This document shows positions 1 through 64,000 of a stretch of DNA of 64,000 nucleotides, one piece after another. This DNA comes from Thermodesulfobacteriota bacterium (GTDB lineage Bacteria > Desulfobacterota > WTBG01 > CAIYCZ01 > CAIRTM01). The DNA is taken from positions 7,787 through 71,786 of the forward strand of contig JANQGV010000012.1 in assembly GCA_028282925.1 (NCBI GenBank). The letters run 5' to 3'. The translations under genes were made by a program, and so were the position numbers. The notes beneath the pieces are model-generated. The model was not told where the DNA came from, made no database searches, and saw only the letters and a program-made list of their open reading frames with translations. The stretch's first letter is position 1; the number at the start of each line of letters is the position of its first letter.

Positions 1-183
1 TAGCATTCCCCGTCGTCATAGCAGTCTACAACGGTCTCGTTGTCAAGCAGGAGAATCTCATCAGCATAGCTGTTTTGAGTTGCTCCAAGACTGAATGTGA
101 CGGAAATAAAAAGTAAAATCAATAGCTTAATGCTACTGGTTGCCCCTGTTGTTTGGAAAAGACGTCTGCCCCTCTTGCCGTGC
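1..183 (-). CDS. Partial N-terminal fragment of a small secreted protein; the gene runs off the window start
   Basis: Reverse-strand ATG at 183-181 gives MHGKRGRRLFQTTGATSSIKLLILLFISVTFSLGATQNSYADE..., with a hydrophobic signal-peptide-like core. The reading frame is open to position 1. It is absent from the ORF track because it is incomplete. Confidence 0.3.
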
Positions 184-555
184 ATGTTTTTTGCCTCCAA
201 TGCTGGTTTGTCAGCACGTAGCTGATGTTCTCTGCCTGTATTCCTGATACAAGCATACCTTATTTCCTAATATAAGTAGTACTTTATCCTATCAAAACGG
301 TCAAGGAAAAATACTTAATTTATTGTGAATTAAGTAAATATTACTATTATTTATTTGATTAATAATAATAAATAATTAGCGTCCGTTTTGTTTTTAAGCT
401 GCTGAATTTGCTTATATTCTGTAGTAAATACCGTCGTTACCGGGGACAAAAATGATAATTTCCGACAATACATAACGAATTATGCCTATGTGACTTTGAG
501 GGAGGGGTACTTTTACACTCAAAGAGAGCCGTTTTACCAATTATCTGCTGATGAA

Positions 556-756
556 TTAGTCTTCGCTGTCAAGCTCCATAAGCTTTGATTCAGCAACGCT
601 GGCTCTCCAGTCGCTCAACAGGACATCAATCTTATGTTCAATGCTTTCATGCTCATTTTGCAGTTCATATATCTGCTGCCTGATGGCACTTGCCTTGTTT
701 TTCAAGGTGTATATTTGTTCCAGCAGATTCTGGGGGTCTTTTTGCGTTTTTTTCAT
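556..756 (-). CDS. Small coiled-coil protein, DUF465 (YdcH)-like
   Basis: 66 aa, highly charged and helical (LLEQIYTLKNKASAIRQQIYELQNEHESIEHKIDVLL). Size and heptad pattern resemble the DUF465 family. No other evidence. Confidence 0.45.
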   Translation of the reverse strand: MKKTQKDPQNLLEQIYTLKNKASAIRQQIYELQNEHESIEHKIDVLLSDWRASVAESKLMELDSED

Positions 757-962
757 TTTTTATACCTATATGGATTTTTTTCATAGAGATGTTTCGGTTT
801 TGTGTGCCACCCTCTCAATAGTTACTGTTGCGTCAATACAACTGAATTGCATAGCATCATTTGGTAGTATAAAAGGGCTGGAAAAGCAAGATAATACTCC
901 GTACCCCACAGTGTTTGATGAGGTTTTTAATGTGGAGCTGTGTAATTGAATCCGCATGTATC

Positions 963-991
963 TTGACTTTTCGGGAATTCTTTTATACAGT
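963..991 (+). promoter_or_regulatory. Putative sigma-70 promoter for the riboswitch-btuFCD operon
   Basis: TTGACT at 963-968, a 17-nt spacer, then TACAGT at 986-991, just upstream of the riboswitch aptamer. Confidence 0.3.
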
Positions 992-999
992 CAAAACAG

Positions 1000-1205
1000 T
1001 TCAGGTGCTCATTTCGAGCATAACAGGGAACTCCGTGTGATTCGGAGACGGGCCCGCCGCTGTAATCGGGGACGAACGCCGCAACCATGTCACTGTTTCG
1101 ATGAATCGAAATGGGAAGACGCGGCCAGTAGAATGATCCGTAAGTCAGAAGACCTACCTGGGCAGAGGACACGACCGCCGTGGCACCGGAGGTTGTCCGC
1201 ATATG
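1000..1205 (+). promoter_or_regulatory. Cobalamin (B12) riboswitch, copy 1
   Basis: Conserved cobalamin-riboswitch elements read directly: AACAGGGAA...GGTGTGATTCGGAGACGGGCCCGCCGCTGTAA, then GTCACTG...GGGAAGACGCGGCC, and the B12 box AAGTCAGAAGACCTACCTGG. It lies directly upstream of a btuF-like gene. Confidence 0.8.
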
Positions 1206-54250: not shown

Positions 54251-54280
54251 AATGGTAGAGGCGGGGGGAGGCAAACACCC
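54251..54280. repeat. Degenerate copy of a tRNA/tmRNA 3'-end-like attachment-site repeat (direct repeat copy 1)
   Basis: AATGGTAGAGGCGGGGGGAGGCAAAC compared with AATGGTGGAGGCGGGGGGAGTCGAAC at 58132: about 24 of 27 positions identical, same orientation, 3.85 kb apart. Confidence 0.5.
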
Positions 54281-58074: not shown

Positions 58075-58138
58075 CACCATTCGACTCACGTTGTTCACTC
58101 AGGGTTTACCATGAGCGAGCGTAGCGAGTCGAATGGTG
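58075..58138. repeat. Long imperfect hairpin (13-bp arms, ~38-nt loop) abutting the att-like repeat
   Basis: CACCATTCGACTC at 58075-58087 is the reverse complement of GAGTCGAATGGTG at 58126-58138. The GAGTCGAA core recurs a third time at 58151. Confidence 0.45.
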
Positions 58139-58158
58139 GAGGCGGGGGGAGTCGAACA
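58136..58158 (-). repeat. Fragment of the 3' terminus of a tRNA/tmRNA (T-loop, T-stem 3' half, acceptor 3' half, ACCA), probably an attachment-site scar at the island boundary
   Basis: The reverse complement reads TTCGACT-CCCCC-CGCCTCC-A-CCA: a T-loop fitting TTCRANY, five Cs, a 7-nt acceptor half, discriminator A, then CCA. It has no matching 5' half (no GGGGG before the T-loop), so it is a 3' fragment and not a gene. The AT-rich DNA begins at 58161. Confidence 0.55.
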
Positions 58159-58324
58159 TGGCATCTATATATTTGTAATATAATAATTATATATAGAATT
58201 TAGTTTTCATGTACCCCCAGTTAAAGTTAATGCCCCCTGGAAATGTAAAGAGTATCCTAGTAGCAAGTATACACTCTGGGTCGCATGGAATTAAAGCTTT
58301 CCGTGGAGCGATCGCTACCAGGGG

Positions 58325-59398
58325 CTATAATATTTCGTACTTCCAATAATCTTTAATCGGGATTCCGTAATCGTTGGCATTTTTTAAGTCATAGGTAACT
58401 TCAAAAGTGCAACACATGCATTTTATCTGCCAGCTGTATTTATATGCCCGCTCATATCTACCATCAGGGGTCTCTCCTTCCACCTCAATATTATCATAAA
58501 CGACCAAGGCCGTTACTCCGCACACAGGACATTTATCTATTTGTTCAAAATGATTTTTTTGGGCTTGTGCTGCAGCTTCTGACTGTTTGATTATCTCGTT
58601 ATTTAAGAACTTTCCATGCATTTTTTCATCTGTAATTGGATTTTCGTATGCTGCTCTACCTAGTGCTTTTGCATAAGCGAATTTACCGACATCATAATCA
58701 TTTTTTTCATTATATAGAAAATCCAAAGGATCAAAATTTATATTCAACGGTTTGTATTTCCATAATATGTTTCGCCCCCTATATCTATCTAGTGCAATAA
58801 CTTTTCTCAAAAAGGGTAAAAAATATTTGCAGATGAATTTGTCTAATGAATCATATCTCAGAATAAAGGATCCTCTATGCCAAATTCTGTTTCTTAGGGT
58901 ATTTAACTTTTCCAACATATTTTTTTTATCAATGATGAATTGATATGATAAATGATTTTCAATTTCTTCATTTTTTATAAGATCAGCTAACCTTTTTAAT
59001 GACTCCGAAAATTCGATTGATCTGATGCCTGATTCTTCTTCGGGTCTTAACTGTTCCCCGGTGAGAAGTTTTTTTAAGACTATTGTTTGTGTTGAGGCAG
59101 TGTCTGCCAACAATGGATGTACGGTCCTGAGAATATCTTTTATTATAAGTTCTGTAAAATGATGAAGGTGTAATATGGTTTCAGCTGCATATTCAAAATA
59201 CTCAAAATGTGTGTTGAAGTCCTTTTTTTCGTTATCTTCATCATTCATGAAAACACTTAGGCTATACTTCATTGCTTTATACGTAGAAAAGTAGGCATGA
59301 AGTCCAAGCCTAAGCGAATAAAATGCAAACCCAGCGATGTTTTTTTCTCTTTTGTCTAATAGTATACCGTCTTTACAAATTCTGGAAAGTTCTAACAT
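58325..59398 (-). CDS. Hypothetical protein with a HEPN-like Rx4H motif and a C-terminal Cys4 zinc-ribbon; candidate Abi/defence RNase
   Basis: LRNRIWHRG contains the R-N-x3-H motif typical of the HEPN family. C-terminal CPVCG...(26 aa)...CMCC. AT-rich codon usage like the rest of the island. Confidence 0.5.
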   Translation of the reverse strand: MLELSRICKDGILLDKREKNIAGFAFYSLRLGLHAYFSTYKAMKYSLSVFMNDEDNEKKDFNTHFEYFEYAAETILHLHHFTELIIKDILRTVHPLLADTASTQTIVLKKLLTGEQLRPEEESGIRSIEFSESLKRLADLIKNEEIENHLSYQFIIDKKNMLEKLNTLRNRIWHRGSFILRYDSLDKFICKYFLPFLRKVIALDRYRGRNILWKYKPLNINFDPLDFLYNEKNDYDVGKFAYAKALGRAAYENPITDEKMHGKFLNNEIIKQSEAAAQAQKNHFEQIDKCPVCGVTALVVYDNIEVEGETPDGRYERAYKYSWQIKCMCCTFEVTYDLKNANDYGIPIKDYWKYEIL

Positions 59399-59603
59399 TT
59401 TTTTTGATCCCTATAAGCTATTTAATTTGTCCGTATCTCAATCTAGGTGTCGCACTCATCGGACTCTTCACCGTTGATACACCCTTCATGAGATGCGTAT
59501 GATGTATTGAGAACACCGTCTTCATGGTACATCTCTGCTTTCCTTTCTCTAATCATGAGGCGTGTTCCGAATCGTGACAGTGGGTTAATGTTAGGTTTTA
59601 GCT

Positions 59604-62531
59604 TCAGCCCTTAAGTAATTCTCGAAATTCAAGATAACCACGACTGCCCAGATAATGAATAAAATCCTCAGCCGCTGAAGCTGCTGGTGATCGTAGAACC
59701 TTTATCAAGATAGACTTTGCATGGTCACGCCAGCCATATACGCCCCAGCCTTCCCGATCACCTCTAGCCATCAGTTCAAGGCAGGTAACAGTCTCGGTTG
59801 GCATTGAAGGAGCAAGTTCTTCTAGCTTTTCCAACACTTCGTCTTCCGGCTCAATCTTCCCGGCGATCCTTATTGCTTCAATCAATTGTGCCAGTGCCCA
59901 GCAATCATCATAAACACCTGAAGCAAACCACCATCCGAATTCTCGCATTTCATATTTATACTTGTCATGTTCCGCACTCTCTTTGGCAGCTGCAAGTCTC
60001 TCTTCCCAAAATAGTTTTAAACGATCTAGGATTTCAGGCAATACTGTTTGCTTATAATCATACAAGCTTCGACCTACGTATTCTACAGCATCTCCCCGTA
60101 GTTCAGGGTCTGCCTTTTCCCAAAATTGATCAAATATAACCCTAGTTTCTTCACCGCTAAGTTTGCCTCGCCAATAAAGTGTCATTACATGCTCAGCGAG
60201 ATGCCTGTCCGCATCATATATGCTGTGACCGCTACCCTGTATATCAATCTGCTTAACAGCATACTTGTACTGGTCTGTAAGTAATTCAAAGACATTATCA
60301 TACACGGAACAGTAAACAACGTAAGTATTCCATGCTGCATAAAAATATTTTTCAGAAAGGTTATCCAATGGAAAGATGTTGAATATCTGCTCAGCAGACC
60401 AACTAGAATCAAGCAGAACCAGCCAGGGGAACCATTGACCATAGACGGCCCTGATTGCAATGGAGGGATCTTTTGATACATCAAGATGGCGCTCAAGCAT
60501 TGTTCGCACTTCTTGCATTTCATCAAAGCCACGGCTGATAAGCTCTGGTGAATCAGATTGCTTATCAAAATATCGTCGGAGCCAAAGAGCATAACGCACA
60601 ACAGCATGCATTGCTTCACCGCGGGTCGTGTTGATAGAAAGGGTAACCGGATCCAAGTTTTCATCACCATACTGTTCTTCATCCTCCGGTGCCGGATCAG
60701 GGTCGTCTGTCAGCGACTCAAGTATTTGCCATACGATTTCACGATCTTCTATAGCAAAGCCTCCAACCTCTTCATCGAACCCAGCTGACAAAAGTCCTGC
60801 AATGGCCTTCCGAGTCCAGCCCCAGTCAGGGTCCATATCAAAATCCTTGTCTGGCCTGCCAGGTATCTCGTGTGGCTGATCCATTATCCAGCGGCAAAGA
60901 TCAATTACAGATTTCCATTGAAAATATTTACCTAATTTTAAAGCCGATTGAAGACCGGATAACAATGACCGCACATATGTTGGATCAAGTTCTTTAAAAG
61001 AATGGGCGTTTTTTGCATATGTTTCTGGGTTTTGAGTTGCAATCGCGGAAAGTTCTCTGCCCAAACCTTCAGGAGAAGATTTAAAAGGACCCTCAGGCGG
61101 TGCCCATGTTCTGAGGAATTCGACAAGTTCTTCAATCGACATTTTTTTTAAATTTTCAGCGTTTACAGGGCTTGTCGGCCCTACCCAACTGCATGTGATT
61201 CTTCCCTCAGGTTTTGGTTCTCCATATTCTGATACCAATTTATCATAATACGTTTTCCAGCCTTCAGGCAGACTCTCTTTAATCCAATTGAGCCGAAAAA
61301 GTTGCCAGGTCTTTGTATATCGTGCGTTGTCATCATCGGTAACCTTTTCGCCGGTTCTCCGTTCTCTACTTTGTTTATATGAAGCCACTTCCGGTCCTTG
61401 TTCAATCCAACTCAATATTTTTTGTTTCTGCGCAATAGTTAAATTATCAAAATGTTCTCTGATTAACAGCGAATATTCATGTTCTAAGCATCGGTCATTG
61501 AACAGTTCCATAGATGTAAGATAGTTTGCAGCTGTCTCCGGAACAACATTAGAGTACAATCGTAGTATGTGGAGGGATATGCGTTTGAAAATTTTCCATG
61601 GATAGCGTTCAAGTGTTTGAATTAGTACAGGAACTTTGGATGTATCCTGCTGTGCAATCTGCTCAGCCCCAGCACGTACTGCTTTAACCAAGGCATGGTT
61701 GATTCTGCGGCCACGGTTCTGTTCATTCTCCTCAACAGACGGGCGCCATATATAGGAATAATCTTCAAAACCGTTATCCTTTGTATTTCTGCCTGACAAG
61801 TCAATGTAGGATTGCAGCAGATCACAGAACAGCTCTAACGCTTCAAAATCACCTGCTCGAACAAGCTCGGGCATAATCTTTTCTAGAATTTTATTATATT
61901 GGTAATTATCAAACCTGGCTTTTGGCTCATAAGGATAACTATGTTTTTGTTCTTTCTCTGAATCGTTTTTTGAATGTGAATCCGGCAGGATTTCAAACAT
62001 CACCCGGGCCAAGTCCAAAGCAGACGCTGTTTGTCCACCCTTTGCCAAGTTTACTATAAAGTGAGCAAGTTTTTCTGTAAGTGACATTTGATATTTTGTG
62101 CCCGCCCAAGTTTTAGCTTTATCCAGTAATCTGACAGAAATTTCAGGCGGCATCTTAATGGCCACATCCGCAAGGTCTTCATACACCCGGACATTATTCG
62201 TATCCGGTATCTGCAAAACAATTGCAAGAACCTTTTCCGGTTCGATTGCAGCCATCCGAGCCAGATAGCGTGATTCTGGCCAAGGGGGTAGGCTGATTGT
62301 TCCTTTAACTTCATCAATCTCAGCTTTTGGTGGTTTTGTAAAAAAACCCTCTGTTTTAAGGGGGTCTATCCACTCAGGAGCATCAAGTCGATCAAAAAAG
62401 TACTTGCAAACACCTTCATCTTCTATAAGTTTTTTTATTCTCTCTAAGCTATCTGCAATTGGATGTTGTATGAGCAATCTATCTATTTCGCTTATTCTGT
62501 TAAAAAATTTATCTTGGCTCAATTCACCCAC
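59604..62531 (-). CDS. Large (975 aa) all-helical protein, translationally coupled downstream of the SIR2 gene; candidate sensor/partner subunit (DSR2 C-terminal-domain analogue?)
   Basis: No Walker A/B or other catalytic motif. Trp-rich and predicted alpha-helical throughout. Its start codon lies 7 nt after the SIR2 stop. Confidence 0.6.
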   Translation of the reverse strand: MGELSQDKFFNRISEIDRLLIQHPIADSLERIKKLIEDEGVCKYFFDRLDAPEWIDPLKTEGFFTKPPKAEIDEVKGTISLPPWPESRYLARMAAIEPEKVLAIVLQIPDTNNVRVYEDLADVAIKMPPEISVRLLDKAKTWAGTKYQMSLTEKLAHFIVNLAKGGQTASALDLARVMFEILPDSHSKNDSEKEQKHSYPYEPKARFDNYQYNKILEKIMPELVRAGDFEALELFCDLLQSYIDLSGRNTKDNGFEDYSYIWRPSVEENEQNRGRRINHALVKAVRAGAEQIAQQDTSKVPVLIQTLERYPWKIFKRISLHILRLYSNVVPETAANYLTSMELFNDRCLEHEYSLLIREHFDNLTIAQKQKILSWIEQGPEVASYKQSRERRTGEKVTDDDNARYTKTWQLFRLNWIKESLPEGWKTYYDKLVSEYGEPKPEGRITCSWVGPTSPVNAENLKKMSIEELVEFLRTWAPPEGPFKSSPEGLGRELSAIATQNPETYAKNAHSFKELDPTYVRSLLSGLQSALKLGKYFQWKSVIDLCRWIMDQPHEIPGRPDKDFDMDPDWGWTRKAIAGLLSAGFDEEVGGFAIEDREIVWQILESLTDDPDPAPEDEEQYGDENLDPVTLSINTTRGEAMHAVVRYALWLRRYFDKQSDSPELISRGFDEMQEVRTMLERHLDVSKDPSIAIRAVYGQWFPWLVLLDSSWSAEQIFNIFPLDNLSEKYFYAAWNTYVVYCSVYDNVFELLTDQYKYAVKQIDIQGSGHSIYDADRHLAEHVMTLYWRGKLSGEETRVIFDQFWEKADPELRGDAVEYVGRSLYDYKQTVLPEILDRLKLFWEERLAAAKESAEHDKYKYEMREFGWWFASGVYDDCWALAQLIEAIRIAGKIEPEDEVLEKLEELAPSMPTETVTCLELMARGDREGWGVYGWRDHAKSILIKVLRSPAASAAEDFIHYLGSRGYLEFRELLKG

Positions 62532-62537
62532 CTCCCT

Positions 62538-63434
62538 TTATATGTCAAAGCCACTTTTAAAAGGTGCTGGCCTTTTTTTCATATCACTATGTTCAACACA
62601 TCCGCGTAGTATTTCTTCAAGCCCCCTAAAATCATCACCTTTTGGATCAAATATGATTGGTTCAATTTCCAAAGCGCTAAAAAGGGCTATCATTTCATCA
62701 TATTCTTCTTTTTGTTCCCCAGTCTTTTGATTTAATGCCGGCCACAAAATGTGTTTAGTAAATATTTTCGATATGCTTGTTTTTGGTTTGATCTCCAATT
62801 GAATTGTATTCGCATATGTGATTAACTCACTAAGATATCTTTCTGTTGGATTAAACCCAATGAATAACACTTTTTCATAAACAAAAAGGTTCAGTAAAAA
62901 CCCTGGCAATAAGCTTTCTTTGCCATACGCACCTTTAAAAGCCCTTTGACCAAAAATCAATTTGTGGTGTTCGTAATTATTCTTTTCAGAGTCATAGCAT
63001 CCATGAATATAATACAAAGCCTGTTCCAACCCTTTCGACATAGATATATCTGGATAAGCATATCTTGCATTGATATCTTCATGCCTGAAGTGATTCTCAA
63101 CCCAAGGATCAAAATTTGTTGTGATAAAAGCTTTAAAAGGGAGTCGTGGTATATAATTTAAAGCTGGTCTGGAAGTTGCAATGTCTTTTGGGAAGAATTC
63201 TTGAAATGTTTTTTCATATTCTGATGGATTAGCATCAAAACATGCATCAATAACCTGTGGTAGGTTCTCAGAGTCAAAATCAACCCTACAACGGTCTGCA
63301 ATTTTCTTAACGCTTTCTTTCCATAGCTCCCCCGGAGGAATAGATAATCCTGCACCAAAAAAGACAATACAGTCCCCACCTAAAACAACTTTTTTTATTT
63401 TGTCAATCGCATCTGTTTCTGCAGTGCGTTTCAT
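62538..63434 (-). CDS. SIR2-family (defence-type SIR2_2-like) NADase-domain protein
   Basis: Rossmann motif VFFGAGLSIPPGELW, ITTNFDPW (compare TTNYD of ThsA/DSR2 SIR2 domains), catalytic-His context YYIHGCYD, and VLFIGFNP (compare FIGYS). 298 aa. Confidence 0.75.
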   Translation of the reverse strand: MKRTAETDAIDKIKKVVLGGDCIVFFGAGLSIPPGELWKESVKKIADRCRVDFDSENLPQVIDACFDANPSEYEKTFQEFFPKDIATSRPALNYIPRLPFKAFITTNFDPWVENHFRHEDINARYAYPDISMSKGLEQALYYIHGCYDSEKNNYEHHKLIFGQRAFKGAYGKESLLPGFLLNLFVYEKVLFIGFNPTERYLSELITYANTIQLEIKPKTSISKIFTKHILWPALNQKTGEQKEEYDEMIALFSALEIEPIIFDPKGDDFRGLEEILRGCVEHSDMKKRPAPFKSGFDI

Positions 63435-63607
63435 TGCACTTCACCTCGGGGAAATTTCATCAGAGACGGACAGTCGTTGGACTACAAAATTGATTCATTT
63501 CAGGTTTATGTGTTTGCTTATTTCCCGCAACAAAATAGTTATCAAATTAATACATATGATGCTTTTTATTTTTCTGAGCGAAAAAAATAAGGATGTCCTT
63601 ATGTATT

Positions 63608-64000
63608 TCAAGAGCTCGATCCGGGGTGCGCGAATGTTGTTTCGCGAGTTATTTTGTTTTCTTTTTCCAGATGAACCAAAACCCAAGGTAATATTTTGTT
63701 CAAAGCCTTTTCATTAGGGTAAGCAGTAATTAGAGAATTTTCAATTTCAGTTTTTCCTGCTTCTGAATTTTCAATCAATAGCTCTGAGGTTTCGGGCGGG
63801 ATGTATTCATAAATATTAAATTTTTGCTTAATAAAAAACAGATTTTCATTGATTACGGGAATTGCTCTTTGCTGCTGTTCGGCGTTTAATGCGTTTAAAA
63901 GTGTTTCTGTCAGATATACTCCATGTGGTAACCCGACCATGGCATCATGTGCATATTGGATCCCCCTGCCACCACATAGACTTACGCTTGTATGTTGTGA
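63608..64000 (-). CDS. Hypothetical protein, 5' end beyond the window (the frame stays open through 64000)
   Basis: Minus-strand reading frame with no stop between 63940 and 64000 (…STTYKRKSMWWQGIQYAHDAMVGLPHGVYL…). Upstream of, and in the same orientation as, the SIR2 operon. Confidence 0.4.
   Translation of the reverse strand, partial: SQHTSVSLCGGRGIQYAHDAMVGLPHGVYLTETLLNALNAEQQQRAIPVINENLFFIKQKFNIYEYIPPETSELLIENSEAGKTEIENSLITAYPNEKALNKILPWVLVHLEKENKITRETTFAHPGSSS

What the first reader, a model, noticed from the sequence alone, without database searches (positions are those of the whole stretch)
59604..63434. SIR2-domain protein translationally coupled to a 975-aa helical protein: a candidate split DSR2-like anti-phage system
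The 298-aa protein carries the full motif set of defence-type SIR2 NADases (GAGxS Rossmann loop, TTNFD, catalytic His, FIGF). Its stop codon lies 7 nt from the start of a 975-aa protein that has no enzymatic motif and is entirely helical and Trp-rich. Single-chain DSR2 defence proteins are built as an N-terminal SIR2 domain plus a ~700-aa helical target-recognition domain, which would recognise a phage structural protein and trigger NAD+ depletion. A collinear two-gene version (SIR2 first, helical sensor second) is an architecture I have not seen described. The pair sits in an AT-rich island next to an att scar, which is the usual home of defence systems.
Basis: partly seen in the sequence, partly recalled or inferred. 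Interest (0 to 1): 0.8.

Follow-up and report, generated by a model that had tools for sequence, protein, structure and literature searches.

The report
Two-gene SIR2 plus Dsr1-type phage sensor
Two coupled genes encode a NAD-destroying SIR2 enzyme and a large helical receptor of the kind that Dsr1 and Avs7 defence proteins use to detect phage capsid protein, so this is a real split version of a known anti-phage system and not a new kind.

Summary
A 298-aa SIR2 gene (62538-63434, minus) is followed by a 972/975-aa all-helical gene (59604-62522/62531). The two ORFs are in the same frame, separated by one TAA, but this is not a broken gene. A GGAGG ribosome site follows the stop. All about 165 listed SIR2 relatives are stand-alone. 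Eight other SIR2-sensor loci have the same layout, six of them with ATGA stop/start overlaps in different frames.

The "DSR2-like" label is wrong in detail. The large protein matches Dsr1 models (PADLOC E=4e-57), not Dsr2. It aligns to the C-terminal sensor of a fused Bacillus SIR2 protein, with the split at the domain boundary, and to the sensor of a haloarchaeal STAND ATPase. This is the Avs7/Dsr1 sensor that a 2026 Nature paper showed binds phage major capsid protein. That paper's methods mention "split proteins".

The sensor subfamily is modular. Most members carry a predicted-nuclease domain X (pP_pnuc_1-like), fused or encoded upstream. The SIR2 pairing is a polyphyletic minority.

Likely mechanism (inferred): the sensor binds a phage structural protein and activates the SIR2 NADase, which depletes NAD+.

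Verdict: new variant of a known kind, moderate interest.

The parts
62538..63434 (-). SIR2 effector gene (298 aa, consisting of the SIR2 domain and a short C-terminal tail). Catalytic Asn107 and His144; conserved C-terminal tail RPAPFKSGFDI.
   Evidence: Pfam SIR2_2 E=8e-12. PADLOC ThsA-SIR2 1.8e-12 and Dsr1 1.5e-7. Family profile against PDB: ThsA, KomC. Invariant G27, T105, N107, H144, G145. AF2 pLDDT 84.6, pTM 0.84. Foldseek: ThsA TM 0.71, KomC, DSR2 SIR2 domain TM 0.65-0.69.
63442..63447 (-). Shine-Dalgarno-like GAGGTG, 7 nt upstream of the SIR2 ATG.
   Evidence: Read directly from the sequence.
62523..62537 (-). 15-nt intercistronic junction: TAA stop (62540-62538), then AGGGAGGTGGGTGAA containing a GGAGG Shine-Dalgarno, 8 nt before the TTG start. 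This is the translational coupling / re-initiation site.
   Evidence: Sequence. Six of eight homologous loci have ATGA stop/start overlaps at the equivalent place; the other two have a 1-nt spacer (L090) and a gap of about 35 nt (L070).
59604..62522 (-). Sensor gene (972 aa from TTG 62522; the mechanical ORF starts at GTG 62531). All-alpha solenoid of the Avs7/Dsr1 sensor family.
   Evidence: PADLOC Dsr1 PDLC04166 E=4.2e-57 over residues 14-868. NCBIfam Dsr1 57 bits, local. hhalign to the fused Bacillus SIR2 protein: probability 98.4%, E=6e-15, sensor residue 4 aligned to residue 325. BLASTP to a haloarchaeal STAND ATPase: E=2e-34. AF2 pLDDT 85.9, all helices. 5559 representative clusters at E<=1e-3.
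58134..58157 (-). 24-nt motif resembling a tRNA 3' end (T-arm, acceptor, CCA) at the left edge of the low-GC island. Possible att remnant; context, not part of the system.
   Evidence: Sequence. A second copy lies at 54253-54276 with 3 mismatches, 0 expected by chance. No tRNA found by ARAGORN or Rfam.
58158..64000 (.). Low-GC island (GC 0.36-0.43) that carries the pair. It is cut by the window end.
   Evidence: Composition profile.

Best explanation
This is a genuine two-gene anti-phage module: a split form of the Dsr1 type of defence sirtuin.

Gene 1 encodes a free-standing SIR2 NADase of the ThsA/DSR/KomC class. Gene 2 is translationally coupled to it and encodes a 972-aa alpha-solenoid receptor of the Avs7/Dsr1 sensor family.

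Proposed mechanism. The first steps are shown and the later ones are inferred.
(a) Shown: the two genes are co-transcribed and coupled.
(b) Shown: the partnership is conserved across many phyla.
(c) Shown: the split lies exactly at the SIR2/sensor domain boundary of fused relatives.
(d) Inferred: the two proteins form a non-covalent complex that keeps SIR2 inactive.
(e) Inferred from EcDsr1 and SeAvs7 (PMC13581612): the solenoid envelops a conserved phage structural protein, most likely the HK97-fold major capsid protein.
(f) Inferred from DSR1, DSR2 and ThsA: binding switches on or releases SIR2, which hydrolyses NAD+ and aborts or stalls phage replication.

The sensor is a portable module. 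In most relatives it is wired to a different effector, domain X, a pP_pnuc_1-like or HEPN-like predicted nuclease, which is either fused to the sensor or encoded upstream.
For: Real split, not a mutation.
- All 46 sequence hits and all 120 listed profile hits of the SIR2 protein are stand-alone proteins of 196-361 aa.
- None of the 150 best sensor representatives shows a fused SIR2; the eight longest N-terminal extensions that were scanned are HTH, pP_pnuc_1-like or unassigned.
- Eight other loci have a SIR2 gene directly upstream of a sensor: L001, L002, L010, L028, L070, L090, L091, L092. Six of them have ATGA overlaps, so the two genes are in different frames.
- In the window a GGAGG lies 8 nt before the TTG start.

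Sensor homology.
- PADLOC Dsr1 E=4e-57, collinear with the SIR2 hit on the same profile: positions 123-207, then 295-1119.
- hhalign to a 1324-aa fused Bacillus SIR2 protein gives probability 98.4%, with sensor residue 4 aligned to residue 325, just after its SIR2_2 domain at 127-288.
- BLASTP to the sensor region of a haloarchaeal STAND (AAA_16) protein gives E=2e-34.

SIR2 competence.
- Asn107 and His144 are invariant.
- The model matches the ThsA, KomC and DSR2 NADase domains.

Defence context.
- The pair lies in a low-GC island.
- Homologous loci sit in or next to type I R-M operons, and near PIN/MazE, AIPR and DUF1156 genes.

Partnership over time.
- SIR2 and sensor identities co-vary modestly across 9 pairs: Mantel r=0.30, permutation p=0.006.

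Function of the family.
- Dsr1 depletes NAD+ (bioRxiv 10.1101/2021.12.14.472415).
- The Avs7/Dsr1 sensor recognises the major capsid protein (PMC13581612).
Against: - Nothing functional was tested here. There is no direct evidence that the two proteins bind each other, and a multimer prediction was not possible with the tools.
- The sensor is only 21-25% identical to the fused SIR2 and STAND relatives. It scores far below the NCBIfam Dsr1 equivalog cut-off (57 against 1400 bits), so the trigger may differ from the major capsid protein.
- By PADLOC E-values the SIR2 protein is at least as close to ThsA-type SIR2 (1.8e-12) as to Dsr1 SIR2 (1.5e-7). The pair may therefore have arisen by recruitment of a free SIR2 to the sensor and not by fission of a Dsr1.
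- Foldseek gives only generic HEAT/ARM solenoid matches for the sensor (TM 0.2-0.3). The Avs7 structures (9YIX, 9N00, 9N01) were apparently not in the libraries.
- In this one locus the two ORFs are in the same frame, which is what a nonsense mutation would also produce.
Confidence: 0.72

Rival explanations
1. A single-chain Dsr1-like gene that was recently broken by a nonsense mutation, i.e. a pseudogene, or a sequencing error. The two ORFs would not be a designed two-gene system.
For: The two ORFs are in the same frame and are separated by one TAA plus a few codons. Fused SIR2-sensor proteins exist elsewhere.
Against: - A GGAGG follows the stop directly, at ideal spacing from a TTG start that puts the N-terminus in register with the homologues.
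- Every listed relative of the SIR2 protein is stand-alone.
- Eight other loci carry the same split, six of them with ATGA overlaps in a different frame.
- No SIR2-fused protein was found among the 150 best sensor representatives.
- Both proteins keep all invariant family residues.
Confidence: 0.03
2. One reading: a split DSR2, whose helical protein recognises a phage tail tube protein as B. subtilis DSR2 does.
For: The SIR2 model superposes on the DSR2 SIR2 domain (TM 0.65-0.69). The overall logic, SIR2 plus a large alpha-solenoid, is the same.
Against: - Neither protein hits a Dsr2 model in PADLOC at E<=0.1, while the Dsr1 models are hit strongly.
- DSR2 is absent from the top 50 Foldseek matches of the sensor.
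- Sequence homology links the sensor to the Dsr1/Avs7 sensor.
- The SIR2 fold matches ThsA at least as well as DSR2.
Confidence: 0.07
3. A toxin-antitoxin-like pair. The large protein would be mainly a constitutive inhibitor or chaperone of a toxic SIR2 NADase. Activation would come from loss or degradation of the large protein, for example on host shut-off, and not from direct recognition of a phage protein.
For: The gene order and tight coupling would keep the two proteins in balance. The effector is encoded in trans. The SIR2 partner evolves faster than the sensor (mean identity 33% against 46%) and has been exchanged.
Against: - The large protein is homologous over about 800 residues to sensors that were shown experimentally to bind the major capsid protein directly (PMC13581612).
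- The same sensor also occurs covalently fused to its effectors, namely domain X, SIR2 or a STAND-linked effector. A degradation-release mechanism cannot apply in those cases.
Confidence: 0.13
4. Not a defence system: a housekeeping sirtuin (protein deacylase) with a helical scaffold partner.
For: SIR2 folds also include deacetylases. No function was tested.
Against: - The SIR2_2 / ThsA-class domain is the NADase class.
- The pair lies in a low-GC island.
- Relatives are embedded in type I R-M and other defence neighbourhoods, and are spread patchily across Bacteria, CPR and Archaea. This pattern points to horizontal transfer.
Confidence: 0.03

Closest known systems
Dsr1 (defence-associated sirtuin 1; Gao et al. 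2020; Garb et al. 2022; sensor characterised in PMC13581612)
   Same: The same two modules occur in the same N-to-C order: a SIR2 NADase followed by an alpha-solenoid sensor of about 950 aa from the Avs7/Dsr1 family. The sensor hits Dsr1 HMMs. The split point coincides with the SIR2/sensor boundary of a fused relative.
   Different: There are two polypeptides instead of one. The sensor belongs to a distant subfamily: 21-25% identity to fused forms, and 57 bits against the 1400-bit NCBIfam Dsr1 cut-off. The SIR2 is not clearly of Dsr1 lineage. Close relatives of this sensor use a predicted nuclease instead of SIR2.
Avs7 (antiviral STAND family 7, SeAvs7; PMC13581612)
   Same: The sensor domain is homologous. 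BLASTP to the sensor region of a haloarchaeal AAA_16 STAND protein gives E=2e-34. The expected mode of recognition is envelopment of a phage protein by a bilobed TPR-like solenoid.
   Different: There is no STAND NTPase, so ATP-driven tetramerisation cannot be the activation switch. The effector is a trans-encoded SIR2 and not an N-terminal fused nuclease. Dependence on EF-Tu is unknown.
DSR2 (B. subtilis defence-associated sirtuin 2)
   Same: A SIR2 NADase controlled by a large alpha-solenoid that binds a phage structural protein. The SIR2 folds are similar (TM 0.65-0.69).
   Different: There is no sequence match to Dsr2 models and the sensor is not DSR2-like by Foldseek. DSR2 is a single chain that senses the tail tube protein.
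Short pAgo systems (SPARSA: SIR2-APAZ plus pAgo) and SIR2-HerA
   Same: These are two-gene systems in which a SIR2 NADase is controlled by a separately encoded recognition or assembly partner. As in pAgo-associated systems, the sensor here alternates between a SIR2 effector and a pP_pnuc_1-like predicted nuclease.
   Different: The partner is a protein-sensing solenoid, not a guide-directed Argonaute or a HerA ATPase. No APAZ, PIWI or HerA domain is present.

Membership tests
Dsr1 (single-chain defence sirtuin 1) | SIR2 NADase domain with catalytic Asn and His | tested here: met
   SIR2_2 E=8e-12. N107 and H144 invariant. The fold matches the ThsA, KomC and DSR2 NADases.
Dsr1 (single-chain defence sirtuin 1) | C-terminal Dsr1/Avs7-type alpha-solenoid sensor | tested here: met
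   PADLOC Dsr1 PDLC04166 E=4e-57. hhalign to the fused SIR2-sensor protein: probability 98.4%. STAND-sensor BLASTP E=2e-34.
Dsr1 (single-chain defence sirtuin 1) | SIR2 and sensor on one polypeptide | tested here: not met
   A TAA stop, a Shine-Dalgarno site and a new start lie between the two ORFs. The split is conserved in 8 other loci.
Dsr1 (single-chain defence sirtuin 1) | Scores above the NCBIfam NF041818 equivalog cut-off (1400 bits) | tested here: not met
   57.1 bits for the sensor and 20.5 bits for SIR2.
Dsr1 (single-chain defence sirtuin 1) | Phage protection with NAD+ depletion; trigger is the major capsid protein | not testable with these tools
   Known for EcDsr1 and Bacillus DSR1 from the literature only.
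DSR2 | Sequence match to Dsr2 profiles, or a DSR2-type MID/CTD | tested here: not met
   No Dsr2 model is hit at E<=0.1 by either protein. DSR2 is not among the top 50 Foldseek hits of the sensor model.
Avs7 (STAND) | STAND NTPase (NB-ARC/AAA_16-type) domain between effector and sensor | tested here: not met
   Neither protein has a P-loop or AAA hit. The sensor starts at residue 1 of its own gene.
Avs7 (STAND) | Avs7-type sensor domain | tested here: met
   Homology to the sensor region of a haloarchaeal AAA_16 protein, query 22-820 aligned to 435-1198, E=2e-34. That protein also hits the Dsr1 model in the same region. I did not verify that this STAND protein is Avs7 proper.
Thoeris ThsA | SIR2 fused to a SLOG/STALD ligand-binding domain, with a ThsB TIR gene adjacent | tested here: not met
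   The protein is 298 aa and consists of the SIR2 domain alone; ThsA profile matches stop at about position 194. The four ORFs scanned in the visible island (58158-64000) gave no TIR hit.
SIR2-HerA / SPARSA (SIR2-APAZ plus pAgo) | Partner is a HerA ATPase or a short pAgo | tested here: not met
   The partner has no Pfam, NCBIfam or PADLOC hit other than Dsr1.

The most novel reading that the evidence does not exclude
The Avs7/Dsr1-type solenoid in this subfamily is a free-standing, portable receptor. It controls unlinked effectors non-covalently and exchanges them readily: SIR2 or a pP_pnuc_1/HEPN-like nuclease, each either fused or in trans. Even sensors about 50% identical use different effectors. 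In the split SIR2 form, activation would work by ligand-induced release or re-assembly of free SIR2 into an active oligomer, as in ThsA and KomC filaments. This would be mechanistically distinct from the in-cis activation of single-chain Dsr1 and from the ATP-driven oligomerisation of Avs7.
Probability: 0.25. Interest if true: 0.6.

Novelty: new variant of a known kind. Interest (0 to 1): 0.4.

Why it matters
This sensor is now known to detect a core phage protein. The locus shows that it also works, presumably, as a separate polypeptide with a trans-encoded SIR2.

A two-protein version is experimentally convenient. Sensor-effector binding, stoichiometry and the activation step can be dissected without cutting a 1,300-aa chain. 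Effector swapping between SIR2 and the predicted nuclease can be tested directly.

For annotation, pipelines that expect a single-chain Dsr1 are likely to miss or mislabel these pairs. Both proteins are currently 'hypothetical' or 'SIR2 family protein' in public records. Hundreds of such pairs exist across bacterial and archaeal phyla.

It does not overturn anything. The modules, their order and the likely mechanism are those of a known system.

Tried and rejected
- The search for related loci with the single sensor sequence found no relative. Repeating it with alignment A1 worked.
- The look-up of encoding contigs for the window's own sensor (P0001) returned 'not on record'. The island beyond position 64000 and the source organism therefore remain unknown.
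- PDB sequence searches with the sensor, both as a single sequence and as a profile, gave nothing meaningful.
- Foldseek against the PDB gave only generic importin/CAND1-type solenoids.
- The afdb50 library was unavailable.
X was identified only through weak but recurrent Pfam PF18165 hits.
- A multimer prediction was not possible. The combined length of 1270 aa exceeds the limit and concatenated sequences are not accepted.
- The supplementary tables of the Avs7/Dsr1 paper are not held. I could not check whether this protein or its clade is listed there as 'split'.
- The 357-aa downstream neighbour was tested as a possible domain-X relative because of its RNRIWH motif and rejected (hhalign probability 0.1%). 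It has no Pfam, NCBIfam or PDB hit.
- The promoter and terminator scans were no better than shuffled sequence.
- Selenocysteine or stop-codon recoding was considered for the in-frame stop and dropped. The stop is TAA, not TGA.


Full report
**1. The observation**

The ORF listing confirms a 298-aa ORF at 62538..63434 (-) and a 975-aa ORF at 59604..62531 (-).

The small protein is a SIR2_2 domain (Pfam E=8e-12). In a 31-member alignment G27, T105, N107, H144 and G145 are invariant.

The large protein has no Pfam hit. It is predicted to be all-helical with mean pLDDT 85.9. Trp makes up 3.0% of it, and many Trp positions are invariant.

GC falls to 0.36-0.43 from 58 kb to the window end.

Two details needed correction.

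- The junction reads GAC ATA TAA AGG GAG GTG GGT GAA TTG AGC. The likely start is the TTG at 62522, 8 nt after a GGAGG. This gives 972 aa, the length of the identical protein on record from NCBI, P0001. It also puts the N-terminus MSQDKFF in register with the homologues.
- The two ORFs are in the same frame, since 903 nt = 3x301. This raised the possibility of a nonsense-mutated single gene.

**2. It is a real, conserved two-gene operon**

- All 46 sequence relatives of the SIR2 protein are stand-alone proteins of 196-322 aa. All 120 best profile hits, out of 205 at E<=1e-5, are stand-alone proteins of 231-361 aa.
- The sensor has more than 430 word-indexed relatives. In an exhaustive search it matches 5559 representative clusters at E<=1e-3, and 2605 at E<=1e-30.
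- None of the 150 best representatives shows a fused SIR2. The eight longest N-terminal extensions scanned against Pfam are HTH, pP_pnuc_1-like or unassigned.
- Eight other loci have a SIR2_2 gene immediately upstream of a sensor: L001, L002, L010, L028, L070, L090, L091 and L092. L090-L092 were reached from SIR2 proteins only 24-27% identical to this one.
- Six of these eight loci have an ATGA stop/start overlap, so the two genes are in different frames there. The other two have a 1-nt spacer and a gap of about 35 nt.
- No third gene is conserved downstream.

The same-frame arrangement in the window is therefore coincidental, and the pseudogene rival is rejected.

**3. What the large protein is**

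- PADLOC assigns it to a Dsr1 model (PDLC04166, E=4.2e-57, protein residues 14-868 on profile positions 295-1119 of 1227). The SIR2 protein hits positions 123-207 of the same profile, so the pair is collinear with a single-chain Dsr1.
- NCBIfam Dsr1 (NF041818) is hit locally at 57 bits, far below its 1400-bit equivalog cut-off.
- No Dsr2 model is hit.
- tblastn against plasmids finds fused 'SIR2 family protein' genes of the Bacillus cereus group and haloarchaeal 'AAA/ATP-binding' proteins.
- In the 1324-aa Bacillus protein, SIR2_2 occupies residues 127-288. hhalign (probability 98.4%, E=6e-15) aligns sensor residue 4 to residue 325. The motif YFFDRL..PEWI.PL..KGFF corresponds to YLFENVDDERWFDYLKEKGFF. 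The split therefore lies exactly at the domain boundary.
- In the 1363-aa Halapricum protein, an AAA_16/AAA_22 STAND-type NTPase is followed by a region that aligns to sensor residues 22-820 (E=2e-34). This region also hits the Dsr1 model.

This matches the finding of PMC13581612 (Nature 2026; preprint PMC12803255) that Avs7 STANDs and Dsr1 share one TPR-like, bilobed sensor. [quoted passage not shown] Split forms were therefore seen but not described in the text I could read.

Foldseek of my sensor model gives only generic HEAT/ARM solenoids (TM 0.2-0.3). The Avs7 entries appear to post-date the library.

**4. The SIR2 partner**

The AF2 model (pLDDT 84.6, pTM 0.84) consists of the SIR2 fold with a C-terminal helix and tail. 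Its best PDB matches are defence NADases:

- ThsA, TM 0.71
- KomC
- the DSR2 SIR2 domain, TM 0.65-0.69

The family profile also finds ThsA and KomC by sequence.

One SIR2 subclade, formed by the window, L001, L010 and L070, has a conserved C-terminal RP(A/P)PF(K/T)xGFD tail just before the stop. This tail is a candidate docking element; that is an inference.

**5. The wider picture: a modular sensor**

The scan of species-representative genomes found 239 stretches that encode a relative. They come from Proteobacteria, Bacillota, Cyanobacteria, Acidobacteriota, Planctomycetota, Chloroflexota, CPR phyla and Archaea.

I took a census of 75 non-redundant loci: 71 of the 80 fetched in that scan, plus four from earlier look-ups.

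- 5 have the SIR2 gene upstream.
- About 28 have a stand-alone sensor with an upstream ORF of roughly 220-380 aa (mostly about 245 aa).
- About 40 have N-terminal extensions of 120-670 aa.

The upstream ORFs and nearly all of the extensions form one homology cluster, which I call domain X. Its invariant residues are Arg and Glu in an AHxLRE motif, plus a His. Ten of 38 members hit Pfam PF18165, pP_pnuc_1 'predicted pPIWI-associating nuclease', with best E=8e-5.

A Streptomyces sp. NBC_00212 plasmid protein has the architecture X plus sensor. X is therefore probably the 'HEPN-like RNase' that the Nature paper describes in a sister strain; this is an inference.

Extra N-terminal modules also occur: HTH, AAA_35, DUF4062 and a thioredoxin-like DUF255.

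In a crude NJ tree the SIR2-linked sensors are polyphyletic among the X-linked ones, and fused and split X forms interleave. The two closest relatives of the window's sensor (51% and 50% identity) are paired with X, not SIR2.

Across nine SIR2-sensor pairs the two proteins co-diverge only modestly (Mantel r=0.30, p=0.006). The SIR2s fall into two subclades that are about 21-32% identical to each other.

Many loci lie directly after hsdS or within type I R-M operons.

**6. Mechanism**

Shown:
- coupled expression of the two genes
- a conserved partnership
- intact catalytic residues in SIR2
- homology of the partner to a sensor that was shown experimentally to bind a phage protein

Inferred:
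- The two proteins form a complex.
- The solenoid binds a phage structural protein, with the major capsid protein as the best guess.
- Binding activates or releases the SIR2 NADase, and NAD+ depletion stops the phage. This is as reported for DSR1, DSR2, ThsA and SIR2-HerA (bioRxiv 10.1101/2021.12.14.472415).

The trigger is uncertain at 21-25% identity to the characterised clades.

**7. Comparison and verdict**

The system works like Dsr1. It fails two membership criteria for Dsr1: a single polypeptide, and the equivalog score. It is not DSR2-like by any sequence test. It lacks the STAND NTPase of Avs7, the SLOG domain of ThsA, and any HerA or pAgo partner.

It is best described as a split, trans-effector variant of the Dsr1/Avs7-sensor systems: widespread, unnamed and uncharacterised, but already glimpsed in the literature.

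- Novelty: new variant of a known kind.
- Interest: 0.4.

Noticed in passing
L005:4917-5450, L017:5280-6014, L095:3289-4029, L097:1895-2400 and many others (alignment A3): Domain X is an all-alpha domain of about 165-250 aa with invariant Arg and Glu (AHxLRE motif) and His (AH..G motif). It is the predominant partner of this sensor subfamily, either fused N-terminally or encoded as a separate upstream gene. It gives weak but recurrent hits to Pfam PF18165 (pP_pnuc_1, predicted pPIWI-associating nuclease). It is probably the 'HEPN-like RNase' effector mentioned in PMC13581612.
   Followed up: partly
window 58134-58157 (-) and 54253-54276 (-): Two copies (0 and 3 mismatches) of a 24-nt motif resembling a tRNA 3' end, GTTCGACTCCCCCCGCCTCCACCA. 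The shared core is about 30 nt, and 0 copies are expected by chance. One copy sits exactly at the GC break of the island. There is no intact tRNA in the window. The copies could be att repeats from successive integrations at a tRNA beyond position 64000, or a repeated intergenic element.
   Followed up: partly
window 58075-58138: A strong imperfect hairpin with 31-nt arms directly adjoins the 58-kb copy of the motif. It folds at -37.5 kcal/mol, z=-5.7 against shuffles. Rfam gives only a meaningless miRNA hit.
   Followed up: partly
window 58325-59398 (-): A 357-aa ORF lies 205 nt downstream of the sensor on the same strand. It has a C-terminal Cys cluster (CPVCG...CMCC) and an RNRIWH motif. 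It has no Pfam, NCBIfam or PDB hit, a weak PADLOC PDC-S64 hit (E=0.0013), and is not related to domain X. It is not conserved next to other SIR2-sensor pairs. It may be another defence gene of the island.
   Followed up: partly
L001, L002, L005-L009, L092: Sensor genes, with SIR2 or with domain X, are repeatedly inserted directly after hsdS or inside type I restriction-modification operons, often with overlapping stop and start. This suggests co-transcription with the R-M genes.
   Followed up: no
L073:3934-5988, L075, L087; L044:4123-5997; L043:4860-5993; L035:815-1846: Unusual N-terminal additions occur on the same sensor family: a thioredoxin-like DUF255 domain (Actinomycetota), an AAA_35 ATPase (Nostoc), DUF4062 on the upstream X gene, and Cro/C1-type HTH domains.
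   Followed up: no
window 63608-63940 (-): A 110-aa ORF upstream of the SIR2 gene has no hit in any library. The window ends at 64000, so the rest of the island, including any integrase or tRNA, is not visible.
   Followed up: no
window 1-1000: The first kilobase of the window is also low in GC (0.38), against about 0.52 for the flanking sequence.
   Followed up: no
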